This document shows, piece after piece, positions 4,072 to 15,761 of a DNA stretch of 32,000 nucleotides; positions within the stretch are counted from its first letter, which is position 1, and every line of letters starts with the position of its first letter. This stretch comes from Chlamydiales bacterium (GTDB lineage Bacteria; Chlamydiota; Chlamydiia; Chlamydiales; JAAKFR01), in NCBI GenBank assembly GCA_041395025.1, contig JAWLBH010000001.1:1110001-1142000 (forward strand). The letters run 5' to 3'. The notes under the pieces are model-generated. The model had not been told where the DNA came from and searched no databases. It saw nothing but the letters and a program-made list of their open reading frames with translations. Position numbers and translations under genes: made by a program.

Positions 4072-4106
4072 TTTTTTGGAATTATTTATTTTAGAGGGTT
4101 TATGGA
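3821..4106. repeat. Direct repeat copy A (MFS 3' end + intergenic 5'UTR/RBS + first 5 nt of ANK paralog 1)
   Basis: Aligns to 12238..12524 with only 3 substitutions and one 1-nt indel by my manual alignment. Confidence 0.95.
4093..4098 (+). promoter_or_regulatory. Shine-Dalgarno-like AGAGGG 3 nt upstream of the ATG of ANK paralog 1 (identical copy at 12511..12516 upstream of paralog 3)
   Basis: The sequence ttagagggtttATGGA is present identically in both repeat copies. Confidence 0.5.
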
Positions 4107-12974: not shown

Positions 12975-15761
12975 ATGCTATTTGAAGAAGTAAAGTTAAA
13001 AGCCCGGGATGGGTATAAGAGACTACAAAACTCCCTAATATTTTTAGCTCTTATGAAAGATAAAAATTCAGGTCAACTCAGCTCATTCATTAATCGTAAA
13101 TCTGATGCTGCTGTCTTAGAGATTCTCCAATTGCTTTTGGAGGATGGATGTGATCCAACAGTACGTGATTCTCATGGAAATCAACCGATACATATGGCCA
13201 TTCAATCAAAATTTCCCGATTGTGTGCAGTTTTTGCTAAATCAAGAAGGAGTAGATGTCAATAGTCCAGGGGAAAAAGGGAATACTCCCTTACATTCTGT
13301 TTTCCAAGACGTCTACAATATGAAAAATAAAAAAGAAGTGAAGGAGATCCTTACATTATTATTAGAGAAAAAGGCTAAACATCTTCCGAATGAAAAGGGA
13401 GAATACCCTATCCATTGGGCGGCTCAACGTTTCCATGCCGATGGATGCGAGCAGTTAGTAAAAACATTTCCTGAAAGTGCCAGTTTACTGAATGAAGAGG
13501 GTCAGCTTCCTATTGAGTTGGCGATTTGTGAAGGAGATATAGCAACGTTAGAACGGTTATGTAATATCGCAGAAATGCCTCAAGATTTGCATCAGCGACT
13601 TGTGACTTTAGCAGTACGTAGACGCGACTCGTATTTGGTTAAATATTTAATAAATTATGGAGAAAAAATTCATTTGCCCAGGTTGGGGTATCCATTCTTG
13701 ACTCTTTTGATAAAAGATCGGGGCATTGATGAAGAAAAAAATCATTTGGCCAGGTTCGGGTTGAATCTTGTGATAGAAAATCGGGGCATTGATGAAAATA
13801 TGCTACCTATTTTAACTCGCCTCTTATTAAAGAAAGAGGATCTTGAGGATCCTGCTTTTGAGGATTTTTTATTAGAGGTCGTGAAAAGAAAAAATCAAAA
13901 CCTCTTTTTTATGTTATTGGTTGACCGGAAATCTTCTTTAACTTCAGAGACCCTCTATCGAATAAGGAGTCAAATACTTCGTTTTGATGATCAATATACA
14001 AATCTATTTAAAGATTTTATTAACGAACAATTATCTTTCGTCACTCATAAGAACTTGAGCTTATCCGAAAAGGAGAAAGAGAAATTGCAAAAAGTTATCG
14101 AAATGGTATTAGAATATTCCGATTATTCAACTCTTAAAAGGTTGCAAGGAGTATCTAAAGCTATGAAAGAGAGATGCTCTGTTGTTAATGGATCTCAAAT
14201 TCTCTCATTTTTCGGAGAATCATTTTCCAAAGTGACGGAGCAATTTCTAGATAAAGATGGAAAGCCAAAAGTAGACAAGTATTGCATAAACAAAACCATG
14301 GGATACCAAACAGAAGAGATAATCCGTGAATGTCAAACGATTCTGCAGGACTGTTTTAGCAAGACGTTATTTAATAAAAGGGATGTTTTAGTAAAGAATG
14401 AGTTAGGGAAAGTTGATTTATCAGCTACTTATGCCTTAATACAAAAGCTAGCTAAAAATCCCACATCCAATGTGAATCTTGGATTAAACAATTTGATTCT
14501 TTCATATCTTTGTAGTGAGAAACTAGTATCTGATAGGAAAAATATTTTTTTAAAACTCCAAGTGATTATGGATATGGGGTGTAGCCCTATCATAGATTTT
14601 ACAGAAATTCGATCATATGAAGATGAAAAATCTCCTTTATTATATGCGGCTTATATAGGAGATAGAAATATTTTTAAACTTTTATTTGACCAAGTAGGCC
14701 GATTAGGACAAGCTAACTTTAAAAGCTTAGAAAACCAGTTGATAATCTGGGCTCTTAAAAAAGATAAAGAATATCCATACCTGAAACAACTGAGTGACGA
14801 ATCTACAAGGGCATACATCACAAAACATAAATGCGATTTCTCTGTCCGTGAGATTATTGAATCGCTTTTGGCTGTTGGATGTAATGCAAAAGCATCTCAT
14901 AATAATGGGAGTCAAGCGATACATTTTGCAGTTCAAGCACCATTTCCCTTGTGCGTGGAGCTTTTGCTAAATCAAGAAGAAGTAGATGTGAATAGTCGGG
15001 GGGTAGAAGGAAATACTGCCTTACATTTTGTTTTCTGCCGCCAATATGATAAGAAAAATCAACTGGAAGTGAACAAGATCTTGGATCTGTTACTCAAGCA
15101 AGATGCTCAACATCTTGCGAATGAAAATGGAGTATACCCCATCCATTACGCGGCTCACTATGGCTATGCTGAAGAATGCGAGATATTAGTAGAAAAATTT
15201 CCTCAAAGTGCTAATCTACTGACTCGAGAGGGGAATCTTCCTATTGAGTTAGCGCTCTCCTCAGGGTATACAGAAGTAGTGAAAAAATTGCTTCCCAAGA
15301 CAAAGTTAGGAGATACCCTTCAATTTTTGAAGTTAGGGACCCGTACTCCTAATCCTTATTTATTCAAATATTTATTAGATACTCTAGATGTGTCTAATTC
15401 TGATATTCATAAGTTATTATTGTTTATGTTAGATGATCTGATAGACAGGCCGGTATTCCTGGTTTGTTTCACGATACTATTAGATTATCATGATTTCCAT
15501 AGCATTAAGATGCCTCCCGGTATTTTATGCCAAAAGTTGTGGGAAAAAAATGAGATGTACTGTTTTCTATTCTTCAATTCTTTAGTTGAAGAACATTGGG
15601 TTGAAATCAAGAAAGACGTGGTTGAAAATAGCAACAACTATACTGATGGTTTTAAAAATTTTTTTAGCTCTTTGATTCAATATCCTTTTTTCCTAGCAAG
15701 TCAGTCTGATCCTAGAGACAGGTTTTTTGATTTAGAAGAGGATGCACAAGAGTCAGTCTGA
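12975..15761 (+). CDS. ANK/F-box family paralog 3, main body (two ANK modules + F-box-like motif; lacks its own N-domain and first DMGC segment)
   Basis: 928 aa. ANK segments include GNQPIHMAIQSKFPDCVQFLLNQEGVDVN, GNTPLHSVF, GEYPIHWAAQRFH, GQLPIELAICEGD, then VIMDMGCSPI...SPLLYAAYIGD, GSQAIHFAVQAPFPLCVELLLNQEEVDVN, GNTALHFVF, GVYPIHYAAHYGY and GNLPIELALSSGY. The F-box-like motif is LQKVIEMVLEYSDYSTLKRLQGVSKAMKERC (14081..14185). The reading frame is open from 12921, overlapping the end of the 12520 ORF. Confidence 0.7.
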   Translation: MLFEEVKLKARDGYKRLQNSLIFLALMKDKNSGQLSSFINRKSDAAVLEILQLLLEDGCDPTVRDSHGNQPIHMAIQSKFPDCVQFLLNQEGVDVNSPGEKGNTPLHSVFQDVYNMKNKKEVKEILTLLLEKKAKHLPNEKGEYPIHWAAQRFHADGCEQLVKTFPESASLLNEEGQLPIELAICEGDIATLERLCNIAEMPQDLHQRLVTLAVRRRDSYLVKYLINYGEKIHLPRLGYPFLTLLIKDRGIDEEKNHLARFGLNLVIENRGIDENMLPILTRLLLKKEDLEDPAFEDFLLEVVKRKNQNLFFMLLVDRKSSLTSETLYRIRSQILRFDDQYTNLFKDFINEQLSFVTHKNLSLSEKEKEKLQKVIEMVLEYSDYSTLKRLQGVSKAMKERCSVVNGSQILSFFGESFSKVTEQFLDKDGKPKVDKYCINKTMGYQTEEIIRECQTILQDCFSKTLFNKRDVLVKNELGKVDLSATYALIQKLAKNPTSNVNLGLNNLILSYLCSEKLVSDRKNIFLKLQVIMDMGCSPIIDFTEIRSYEDEKSPLLYAAYIGDRNIFKLLFDQVGRLGQANFKSLENQLIIWALKKDKEYPYLKQLSDESTRAYITKHKCDFSVREIIESLLAVGCNAKASHNNGSQAIHFAVQAPFPLCVELLLNQEEVDVNSRGVEGNTALHFVFCRQYDKKNQLEVNKILDLLLKQDAQHLANENGVYPIHYAAHYGYAEECEILVEKFPQSANLLTREGNLPIELALSSGYTEVVKKLLPKTKLGDTLQFLKLGTRTPNPYLFKYLLDTLDVSNSDIHKLLLFMLDDLIDRPVFLVCFTILLDYHDFHSIKMPPGILCQKLWEKNEMYCFLFFNSLVEEHWVEIKKDVVENSNNYTDGFKNFFSSLIQYPFFLASQSDPRDRFFDLEEDAQESV
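13671..13799 (+). repeat. Imperfect in-frame tandem repeat (72 + 57 bp) in paralog 3 (HLPRLGYPFLTLLIKDRGIDEEKN / HLARFGLNLVIENRGIDEN)
   Basis: The catttgcccaggttgggg...cggggcattgatgaag unit is repeated from 13743 with an internal ~15 nt deletion. Confidence 0.75.

What the first reader, a model, noticed from the sequence alone, without database searches (positions are those of the whole stretch)
4102..15761. Tandem array of three giant ANK + F-box-like paralogs inserted between dnaG and glyQS
Three consecutive same-strand genes (1286 aa, 1375 aa, 144+928 aa) share one architecture. It consists of a family-specific N-terminal ~100 aa domain, a linker ending in (V/I)(I/M)(L/M)DMGC, an ankyrin module, an F-box-like helix motif, a second homologous linker+DMGC, and a second ankyrin module. 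Ankyrin repeats combined with an F-box are a eukaryotic SCF-ubiquitin-ligase adaptor design. In bacteria that design is known from secreted effectors of intracellular organisms (e.g. Legionella AnkB) and from expanded families in amoeba symbionts. Here the F-box sits in the middle of the protein between two ANK blocks rather than at an end, and the proteins are unusually large. The block occupies a gap in otherwise conserved chlamydial synteny, which suggests lineage-specific expansion at an effector hot spot.
Basis: partly seen in the sequence, partly recalled or inferred. Interest (0 to 1): 0.78.

Follow-up and report, generated by a model that had tools for sequence, protein, structure and literature searches.

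The report
Orphan giant ankyrin effector-like gene array
An uncultured chlamydia carries a tandem cluster of very large ankyrin-repeat genes found nowhere else, sitting in a chromosomal slot that related chlamydiae fill with other host-manipulation genes; the proposed ubiquitin-ligase (F-box) motif in them is only weakly supported.

Summary
The ORFs, sizes and paralogy are real. A (4102-7962) and B (8119-12246) each have an orphan ~100-aa N-terminal domain, then two ~480-aa modules (linker, invariant DMGC, ankyrin repeats, helical tail). C is split by a frameshift (12520-12954 and 12975-15761) and lacks its first linker and DMGC.

Ankyrin hits are strong (Pfam E 1e-30 to 1e-42). The F-box is not established. 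No Pfam hit appears on the whole proteins. On excerpts, F-box is the top but sub-threshold hit for B (E=0.017) and C (E=0.21), and absent for A. hhalign gives P=0.002. A low-confidence model draws non-significant matches in which F-box proteins are over-represented.

An exhaustive profile search of 1.84 billion proteins found one further member, a 1710-aa paralog about 20 genes upstream on the same 1.3-Mb Chlamydiales MAG contig.

The hot-spot idea is well supported. dnaG and glyQS are convergent neighbours across chlamydiae, with a 0.2-8 kb gap. That gap holds F-box, RING, LRR, kinase or ANK genes in different lineages.

Best reading: these are lineage-specific secreted ANK effectors evolving by birth and death, possibly carrying a divergent F-box. 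This is a new variant of the kind described by Domman et al. 2014.

The parts
4102..7962 (+). Gene A, 1286 aa: N-terminal domain, module 1, F-box-like motif, module 2. Identical to NCBI MEZ5315577.1, 'MAG: ankyrin repeat domain-containing protein [Chlamydiales bacterium]'.
4102..4401 (+). Family-specific N-terminal domain of A (~100 aa; motif GY-x-(L/I)T-x-(K/R)L-x-E-x-GG-x-x-K). The copies in B (8119-8463) and C1 (12520-12819) are homologous.
   Evidence: Alignment. The AF2 model of C1's copy (window 12520-12879) has pLDDT 72 and pTM 0.65. No PDB fold match and no Pfam hit.
4834..4845 (+). DMGC motif 1 of A, at the N-terminal cap of ANK module 1. The other copies are at 6742-6753 (A2), 8866-8877 (B1), 11110-11121 (B2) and 14571-14582 (C).
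4846..6021 (+). ANK module 1 of A: a cap repeat, an insert, about 4 canonical ANK repeats and a degenerate helical tail.
   Evidence: Pfam Ank/Ank_2 hits; module alignment
6214..6321 (+). F-box-like motif of A (DHKDIFPKIVEYLEIPDVVKFPILSTQMRKNYLKSI).
   Evidence: Pattern alignment. No Pfam F-box hit on this excerpt.
6754..7959 (+). ANK module 2 of A.
8119..12246 (+). Gene B, 1375 aa, with the same architecture as A (MEZ5315578.1). Its stop codon lies inside the MFS-derived repeat copy, so its C-terminus is set by a duplication junction.
10339..10443 (+). F-box-like motif of B (ELPVIAWNTIFSYLELKKMRNLRILSKRSIIQEAI). This is the best F-box match in the family.
   Evidence: Pfam PF00646 is the top hit at E=0.017, 15.5 bits, below the 20.5 cut-off. 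hhalign aligns it in register, P=0.0019.
12520..12954 (+). C1: the N-terminal domain fragment of gene C (144 aa), ending in a stop codon.
   Evidence: P0123
12975..15761 (+). C2: the remainder of gene C (928 aa) in another frame. It holds a truncated module 1, the F-box-like motif (14082-14180), a linker, DMGC and module 2 (MEZ5315580.1).
14082..14180 (+). F-box-like motif of C (KLQKVIEMVLEYSDYSTLKRLQGVSKAMKERCS).
   Evidence: Pfam PF00646 is the top hit at E=0.21, 12 bits. The AF2 model of 14058-14609 has three helices here with pLDDT about 65-77. Foldseek matches are listed.
3817..4140 (+). Repeat copy 1: the 3' end of the MFS gene, a 30-bp spacer and the first codons of gene A.
   Evidence: 97-98% identical to 12235-12557
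12235..12557 (+). Repeat copy 2: a dead, frameshifted MFS 3' fragment, then the spacer and the first codons of gene C. This is a duplication or gene-conversion junction.
2881..4071 (+). MFS transporter gene at the left edge of the variable slot. It is absent from this locus in all relatives examined.
1147..2862 (+). dnaG, the left conserved flank.
15818..18904 (-). Fused glyQS, the right conserved flank.

Best explanation
The block is a lineage-specific family of giant, multi-module ankyrin-repeat proteins. Three copies lie here and a fourth lies about 20 genes upstream. The host is an uncultured, deeply branching Chlamydiales bacterium.

Shown:
- The genes are real and paralogous.
- Each is an orphan ~100-aa N-terminal domain followed by 2-3 copies of a ~480-aa unit: helical linker, DMGC cap, ANK repeats and helical tail.
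- A short three-helix, F-box-patterned segment opens each inter-module linker.
- The family evolves by duplication at every scale (intragenic tandem repeats, module duplication, gene duplication and a 320-bp junction repeat) and by decay (gene C is split and truncated).
- It occupies the dnaG-glyQS slot, which other chlamydiae fill with different eukaryote-like genes.

Inferred:
- The proteins are soluble substrates of the chlamydial type III secretion system.
- The conserved N-terminal domain carries the secretion or chaperone-binding function.
- The ANK modules clamp host proteins.
- The inter-module motif is a diverged F-box, so each 'motif-linker-ANK' unit copies the layout of a eukaryotic F-box protein. 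It may dock host Skp1/Cul1 to ubiquitinate whatever the ANK modules hold.

I put about 0.8 on 'secreted host-targeting ANK effector family', about 0.6 on 'the motif descends from an F-box' and about 0.35 on 'it still binds Skp1'. The overall confidence of 0.5 is for the compound reading: a secreted ANK effector family whose inter-module motif is F-box-derived.
For: - Strong ANK hits in every member.
- No TM segment or Sec-type N-terminus.
- The module structure and invariant DMGC are shared.
- Family membership is confined to one contig out of 1.84e9 representatives.
- F-box is the top Pfam hit for two homologous excerpts, B at E=0.017 and C at E=0.21.
- Profile-profile alignment to 7 F-boxes is in the expected register, P=0.0019.
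- The most conserved family columns (I..YL...D.....LSK) coincide with F-box hallmark positions.
- The AF2 model shows three helices over the motif.
- The highest-probability Foldseek PDB matches include FBXW11-Skp1 and beta-TrCP-Skp1 chains.
- 12 of the top 50 BFVD matches, including rank 1, are annotated F-box proteins.
- The same slot in relatives carries a bona fide F-box-like protein (L023, E=8.6e-9), six RING paralogs (L015), LRR arrays (L007/L009), a kinase (L005) and ANK (L003).
- In C. trachomatis the gene numbered between dnaG and glyQ, CT795, is a secreted protein (PMC6717882). The gene order is from my memory of the annotation.
- Domman et al. 2014 (PMC4209131) showed tandemly expanded F-box/BTB/RING-plus-repeat families in Parachlamydiaceae that carry functional T3S signals.
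Against: - No F-box, F-box-like or PRANC hit reaches Pfam's threshold.
- A, D1 and D2 give no hit at all.
- The LP dipeptide is present only in B, and the conserved Trp after (C/S)K is absent in all.
- Neither the family profile nor B's motif alone finds any F-box chain in the PDB. A real chlamydial F-box does.
- A small home-made F-box HMM scores at the level of shuffled controls.
- The structural model is low-confidence (pLDDT 52) and every fold match is non-significant.
- Secretion, expression and host binding are untested.
- Gene C is already decaying.
Confidence: 0.5

Rival explanations
1. These are secreted ANK-repeat effectors with no ubiquitin-ligase link. The inter-module segment is just a helical linker, and its F-box resemblance is chance or a dead relic. 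The proteins would act by stoichiometric binding or scaffolding of host proteins, like many bacterial Ank effectors.
For: - All F-box evidence is sub-threshold.
- There are no PDB sequence hits, while the positive control succeeds.
- The LP and Trp hallmark residues are mostly missing.
- The second inter-module motif of paralog D is visibly degenerate.
Against: Three independent weak signals point to the same family and the same register: Pfam's top hit in two paralogs, hhalign, and Foldseek enrichment for F-box proteins. The motif is conserved between paralogs that are otherwise only about 25% identical.
Confidence: 0.33
2. The array is largely non-functional. It would be a by-product of non-adaptive birth-and-death duplication in a small isolated population, on its way to pseudogenisation.
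For: - Gene C is split and truncated.
- B's C-terminus is defined by a duplication junction.
- Perfect and near-perfect intragenic tandem repeats are present.
- The family has no relatives elsewhere.
- Domman et al. argue that non-adaptive processes contribute to such expansions.
Against: - A (1286 aa), B (1375 aa) and D (1710 aa) are uninterrupted ORFs in a 36% GC genome, where stop codons arise easily.
- Paralogs have diverged to 25-38% identity yet keep the module structure, the DMGC motif and the N-terminal domain. That pattern implies long-term purifying selection.
Confidence: 0.1
3. The proteins work inside the bacterium, for example as ANK scaffolds for bacterial partners, and are not secreted.
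For: No secretion signal could be tested. The proteins have no Sec signal or TM segment.
Against: The slot's cargo in relatives is consistently eukaryote-like: F-box, RING, LRR and kinase genes. ANK expansions in obligate intracellular bacteria are, by established knowledge, nearly always host-directed. All known chlamydiae have a T3SS.
Confidence: 0.05

Closest known systems
Parachlamydiaceae expanded effector families NEX1/NEX2/PEX1/PEX2 (Domman et al. 2014, PMC4209131)
   Same: - The host is a chlamydia.
- Eukaryote-like repeat proteins occur in tandem arrays.
- Evolution is by birth and death, with recent duplications and decaying copies.
- A ubiquitination-related motif is paired with a repeat domain.
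- The proteins are presumed T3S effectors.
   Different: - No sequence homology was found. The exhaustive search returned no member outside this MAG.
- The repeats are ANK, not LRR or TPR.
- The putative F-box is internal and sub-threshold, rather than N-terminal and clear.
- The family has 4 genes rather than 27-138.
- The proteins have 2-3 large modules and an orphan N-terminal domain.
Legionella pneumophila AnkB (PDB 5k35)
   Same: The order F-box, then ANK, matches each 'motif-linker-ANK module' unit here. It is a secreted SCF-mimicking adaptor of an amoeba-adapted intracellular bacterium.
   Different: AnkB is about 170-180 aa, with a canonical N-terminal F-box that is recognisable by sequence. 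The control F-box hit it at E=0.046. The window's motif does not hit it. There is no homology outside the generic ANK repeats.
Orientia tsutsugamushi Anks and poxviral ANK/PRANC proteins (PMC4148323, PMC4353913)
   Same: ANK repeats are followed C-terminally by a short, truncated F-box-like motif that lacks full F-box features yet binds Skp1/Cul1. That mirrors 'module 1 then motif' here. These families are also multi-copy.
   Different: - No PRANC (PF09372) hit was found.
- In those proteins the motif is C-terminal and terminal, whereas here a second ANK module follows it.
- Those proteins are 300-650 aa.
- Skp1 binding is demonstrated for them and untested here.
C. trachomatis CT795 slot (dnaG-CT795-glyQ)
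   Same: The chromosomal position is the same, in a block syntenic from mutS to ispE. It holds a lineage-specific secreted protein (PMC6717882). The gene order is from memory.
   Different: CT795 is a small Sec-dependent protein with no ANK repeats. It is unrelated in sequence.

Membership tests
Ankyrin repeat proteins (Pfam Ank clan) | Significant matches to the Ank/Ank_2 HMMs above the gathering score, in multiple tandem repeats | tested here: met
   Ank_2 scores 105-198 bits against a cut-off of 27.3 in A, B, C2 and D.
F-box proteins (PF00646 / PF12937) | HMM match at or above Pfam's gathering score | tested here: not met
   No hit on the full proteins at E<=1. On excerpts B scores 15.5 bits and C 12.0 bits against a cut-off of 20.5; A, D1 and D2 give no hit.
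F-box proteins (PF00646 / PF12937) | Hallmark residues: LP at the start of helix 1, a hydrophobic core I/L..L, (C/S)(K/R)xW, and a trailing LW | tested here: inconclusive
   The I..YL...D.....LSK core is conserved in the family. LP occurs only in B. The Trp positions are absent in all five motifs.
F-box proteins (PF00646 / PF12937) | Three-helix F-box fold | tested here: inconclusive
   AF2 places three helices over the motif, but mean pLDDT is 52. Foldseek finds nothing at E<=0.001. The best-probability PDB hits include FBXW11/beta-TrCP-Skp1, and 12 of the top 50 BFVD hits are F-box proteins.
F-box proteins (PF00646 / PF12937) | Binding to Skp1 | not testable with these tools
   No multimer prediction or wet assay was available.
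PRANC / poxviral-type C-terminal F-box-like | Match to PF09372, at the C-terminus after the ANK repeats | tested here: not met
   No PRANC hit at E<=10 on excerpts or E<=1 on full proteins. The motif is internal.
Parachlamydiaceae NEX/PEX families | Detectable sequence homology to family members | tested here: not met
   The exhaustive profile search of 1.84e9 representatives returned only proteins of this MAG plus generic ANK cap hits. It covered the N-terminal domain, linker and DMGC cap only; the inter-module region and module tail were not searched exhaustively.
Chlamydial type III secreted effectors | Functional N-terminal T3S signal | not testable with these tools
   Only negative features were checked: no Sec-like hydrophobic N-terminus and no TM segment.

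The most novel reading that the evidence does not exclude
These proteins are a previously unseen kind of bacterial SCF adaptor. A single, highly diverged F-box sits between two (in paralog D, three) large ANK platforms. One effector could then hold a host substrate on both sides of the Skp1 docking site, or bridge two host proteins. The family would have arisen de novo in an unsampled chlamydial lineage with its own orphan N-terminal secretion domain.
Probability: 0.25. Interest if true: 0.6.

Novelty: new variant of a known kind. Interest (0 to 1): 0.4.

Why it matters
If the central motif binds Skp1, this would extend the range of bacterial F-box mimicry. The sequence is far enough from the consensus to escape HMM annotation, and the bivalent ANK-F-box-ANK layout has not been described. 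That would imply that F-box effectors are under-counted in environmental chlamydiae.

Independently of that, the comparison identifies the dnaG-glyQS interval as a phylum-wide exchange slot for eukaryote-like genes: F-box, RING, LRR, kinase and ANK. This slot is a practical place to look for new effectors in chlamydial MAGs. The locus also gives a clean snapshot of birth-and-death evolution, with module, gene and junction duplications beside a decaying copy.

Tried and rejected
- **Full-length A against the 5.8e9-protein index.** The search was swamped by eukaryotic ankyrins. Only the self-match was informative.
- **Non-ANK alignment A3 against the same index.** It returned nothing, not even the query proteins, so I treat it as uninformative rather than negative.
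- **L023's F-box protein as a query to build a deeper chlamydial F-box profile.** Only the self-match came back, so the profile could not be built.
- **Family-motif profile and B's motif against PDB sequences.** No F-box hits.
- **Home-made F-box HMM from 7 sequences.** Scores were at the level of shuffled controls, so the result is uninformative.
- **N-terminal domain.** No Pfam hit and no PDB fold match.
- **Contig look-up for paralog D.** Not on record. Its location was inferred from NCBI accession numbering on the same contig.
- **Eukaryotic contamination.** Rejected. The genes sit inside a 1.3-Mb chlamydial contig between dnaG and glyQS, with the same GC content and skew as their neighbours.
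- **Promoter and terminator scan.** Counts were at shuffle expectation, so it says nothing about operon structure.
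Full report
**Observation.** The window holds three consecutive +strand loci exactly where stated: A at 4102-7962 (1286 aa), B at 8119-12246 (1375 aa), and C1 at 12520-12954 (144 aa) with C2 at 12975-15761 (928 aa). 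BLASTP shows they are paralogs at 25-38% identity. Each of A and B contains two copies of one long module. A six-way alignment defines that module as a variable helical linker, then (V/I)(I/M/L)(M/L/V)DMGC, then an ANK-like cap repeat (SPLxYAxxxGD), an insert, about four canonical ANK repeats, and a degenerate helical tail ending in a Y-x-x-x-FKDFI-like motif. DMGC occurs exactly five times. Pfam gives very strong ankyrin hits for A, B and C2: Ank_2 E=2.5e-30, 1.1e-33 and 3.3e-42. The first ~100 aa form a separate domain that is the best-conserved part of the family, 33-38% identical to C1's copy in the alignment and up to 50% between D and C1 by BLASTP.

Gene C departs from the description. 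C1 ends in a stop codon and C2 restarts 20 nt later in another frame. About 130 aa are missing, comprising linker 1, DMGC and the cap repeat. C is therefore a split, truncated copy with a single DMGC.

**Source and distribution.** A is 100% identical to NCBI MEZ5315577.1, 'MAG: ankyrin repeat domain-containing protein [Chlamydiales bacterium]', on a 1,319,052-bp contig. I built a profile of the non-ANK parts (N-terminal domain, linker and DMGC cap; alignment A4) and scored it against all 1.84 billion cluster representatives. It found only A, B, C1 and C2 plus one further protein, P0122 (1710 aa, E=1.2e-42). The other 13 hits match only the terminal ANK-cap columns. P0122 is MEZ5315557.1 on the same contig, 20 accession numbers before A. 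It has the same N-terminal domain followed by three modules.

On present data the family is confined to one genome. That genome has no close sequenced relative. The best glyQS match among 185,579 species representatives is 50-63% identical. 'Orphan' status therefore partly reflects sparse sampling. Nothing ties the organism to Parachlamydiaceae.

**The F-box question.** Between the modules, each protein has a segment with the F-box pattern:
- A: DHKDIFPKIVEYLEIPDVVKFPILSTQMRK
- B: ELPVIAWNTIFSYLELKKMRNLRILSKRS
- C: KLQKVIEMVLEYSDYSTLKRLQGVSKAMK
- D: two further copies

Evidence for:
- On 55-58-aa excerpts, PF00646 is the top Pfam hit for B (E=0.017, 15.5 bits) and for C (E=0.21, 12 bits).
- hhalign of the five-motif alignment against seven F-boxes aligns 25 columns in the expected register, with P=0.0019 and probability 14%. 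Three of the seven sequences come from tool output and four from memory.
- The most conserved family columns coincide with F-box core positions.
- AF2 puts three helices on the motif.
- Foldseek hits are not significant. Even so, the highest-probability PDB matches include FBXW11-Skp1 (6wnx_A, prob 0.47) and beta-TrCP-Skp1 (6m93_A, prob 0.30).
- In BFVD the rank-1 match and 12 of the top 50 are annotated F-box proteins. I take that to be far above their share of that library, but I did not measure the base rate.

Evidence against:
- No hit appears on the whole proteins at E<=1.
- A, D1 and D2 give no hit.
- All scores fall below the 20.5-bit cut-off.
- LP is present only in B, and the Trp residues are absent everywhere.
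- Neither the family profile nor B's motif finds any F-box in PDB sequences.
- A genuine chlamydial F-box from locus L023 hits FBXW7, FBXO31, Skp2 and Legionella AnkB at E from 3e-5 to 0.05.
- A small home-made HMM scores at noise level.
- The model's mean pLDDT is 52.

My reading is that the motif is probably a much-diverged F-box (about 0.6). Family membership is not demonstrated, and Skp1 binding is an open question (about 0.35).

**Layout.** If the motif is counted, each 'motif, helical linker, ANK module' unit has the order of a canonical F-box protein, as in AnkB. 'ANK module 1, then motif' recalls the Orientia and poxvirus ANK/PRANC order. The first unit carries the orphan N-terminal domain instead of the motif. 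That domain gave a moderately confident model (pLDDT 72, pTM 0.65): a long helix, a beta-hairpin and three helices. It has no PDB fold match and no Pfam match. The proteins have no TM segment or Sec-type N-terminus. I infer, without test, that this conserved N-terminal domain serves type III secretion or chaperone binding.

**Genomic context.** The window runs mutS(-), dnaG, MFS, A, B, C, glyQS(-), orf423, pgsA, glgA(-), tRNA-Gln, prs, L25, pth, S6, S18, L9, ispE-like kinase, epimerase, PfkB, orf811. From memory of the annotation, this order matches C. trachomatis CT792-CT804.

I fetched 80 glyQS loci. In 12 chlamydia-like loci dnaG lies convergent to glyQS, at a distance of 186 bp to 8.1 kb. 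Here the distance is 12,955 bp. Many relatives keep two 'frame' genes in the gap: a DCC-like thiol oxidoreductase next to dnaG (11 loci) and a dipeptidase-like gene next to glyQS (10 loci). Both are absent from this window. No locus has a homolog of A, B, C or of the MFS gene.

The variable cargo beyond glyQS is consistently eukaryote-like:
- an N-terminal F-box-like protein in L023, one of the closest glyQS relatives (63% identity over the full length) (PF12937, E=8.6e-9)
- a run of RING-finger paralogs in L015 (five with the RING cysteine motif by eye, two confirmed by Pfam)
- LRR protein arrays in L007 and L009
- a eukaryote-type protein kinase in L005
- an ANK protein in L003
- a TPS-domain protein in L010

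In C. trachomatis the corresponding gene, CT795, is a secreted protein (PMC6717882).

**How the array grew.** A 320-bp segment comprises the last ~250 bp of the MFS gene, the 30-bp spacer, and the start codon with the first codons of A (3817-4140). It recurs 8.4 kb downstream at 97-98% identity (12235-12557), directly upstream of C. There the MFS fragment is frameshifted and dead. Identity collapses a few codons into the coding region. B's stop codon lies inside this MFS-derived copy, so B's C-terminus is set by the junction. This marks either an old segmental tandem duplication kept homogeneous by gene conversion, or a recent duplication followed by collapse. I cannot tell which.

Smaller repeats also occur: a perfect 60-bp tandem duplication and a 92% 51-bp one in B, and a 78% 105-bp one in A. 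Together with module duplication (two modules in A and B, three in D) and the decay of C, this is birth-and-death evolution. Domman et al. 2014 described the same pattern for F-box/BTB/RING-plus-repeat families of Parachlamydiaceae, which also lie in tandem arrays and carry functional T3S signals (PMC4209131).

**Comparison with known systems.** The locus works most like the Domman families, Legionella AnkB and the Orientia/poxvirus ANK-F-box adaptors (PMC4148323, PMC4353913). It is a member of none of them. There is no sequence homology to NEX/PEX, no PRANC hit, and the F-box threshold is not met. It is securely a member only of the ANK-repeat superfamily.

**Verdict.** This is a real, lineage-restricted family of giant modular ANK proteins in a phylum-wide variable slot. 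It is a new variant of a known kind of chlamydial effector expansion. The F-box and SCF reading is plausible but unproven. Interest is moderate at 0.4. It would rise if Skp1 binding by such a divergent, internally placed motif were shown.

Noticed in passing
window 3817-4140 and 12235-12557: A 320-bp direct repeat at 97-98% identity. It comprises the MFS gene's 3' end, the spacer and the start of gene A, copied upstream of gene C. The MFS fragment in the second copy is frameshifted. Identity collapses just after the ATG, although the downstream genes are only about 37% identical in protein. This marks a gene-conversion or duplication junction. It could also mediate deletion of A and B.
   Followed up: partly
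window 12232-12246: Gene B's last codons and stop codon lie inside the MFS-derived repeat copy. B's C-terminus is therefore truncated and defined by the duplication junction.
   Followed up: partly
window 9985-10104, 10643-10744, 5965-6152: In-frame intragenic tandem repeats: a perfect 60-bp x2 in B (SLSSQDPEDQSDIFQKVEDL x2), a 92% 51-bp x2 in B, and a 78% 105-bp x2 in A. The perfect one is either very recent slippage or an assembly issue.
   Followed up: no
outside the window, same contig (P0122 = MEZ5315557.1): A fourth family member of 1710 aa lies about 20 genes upstream of A. It has the same N-terminal domain and three modules. Modules 2 and 3 have degenerate DMGC (DRRN, DIGN), and long stretches are near-identical between modules, indicating recent internal duplication.
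   Followed up: partly
window 28922-31357: An 811-aa ORF with no Pfam hit. It has a bilobed hydrophobic segment at aa ~30-85, typical of chlamydial inclusion-membrane (Inc) proteins. It also has an internal tandem duplication of a ~290-aa domain.
   Followed up: no
window 19112-20383: A 423-aa ORF between glyQS and pgsA with no Pfam hit. It has two paired hydrophobic segments (aa ~50-88 and 106-138), which is Inc-like. Weak homologs (34% identity) occupy the same position in L001 and L023.
   Followed up: no
L015 6284-14210: A tandem array of RING-finger (E3-ligase-like) paralogs immediately downstream of glyQS in a Chlamydiae MAG (K940_chlam_3). Five ORFs show the RING cysteine motif by eye; two were confirmed by Pfam.
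   Followed up: partly
L007 14034-22223; L009 12590-19141: Arrays of LRR-repeat paralogs (535-773 aa) in the glyQS-dnaG slot of 'Ca. Acheromyda pituitae' and a related MAG.
   Followed up: partly
L023 9624-11480: A 618-aa protein with a clear N-terminal F-box-like domain (PF12937, E=8.6e-9; it hits FBXW7, Skp2 and AnkB in the PDB). It lies directly after glyQS in L023, one of the closest glyQS relatives (63% identity). It is itself an orphan, with only a self-match in 5.8e9 proteins.
   Followed up: yes
L005 13518-15128: A eukaryote-type Ser/Thr protein kinase (Pkinase, E=1.8e-24) lies in the same slot of another Chlamydiales MAG.
   Followed up: no
window 1-32000: From memory of the C. trachomatis annotation, the gene order mutS-dnaG-[slot]-glyQS-pgsA-glgA-...-L25-pth-S6-S18-L9-ispE matches CT792-CT804. 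Two 'frame' genes common in relatives, a DCC-like oxidoreductase and a dipeptidase-like gene, are absent here.
   Followed up: partly
tool behaviour: The alignment-based homologous-protein search with A3 returned no hit at all, not even the query's own proteins, which are in the database. That negative result should not be trusted.
   Followed up: no
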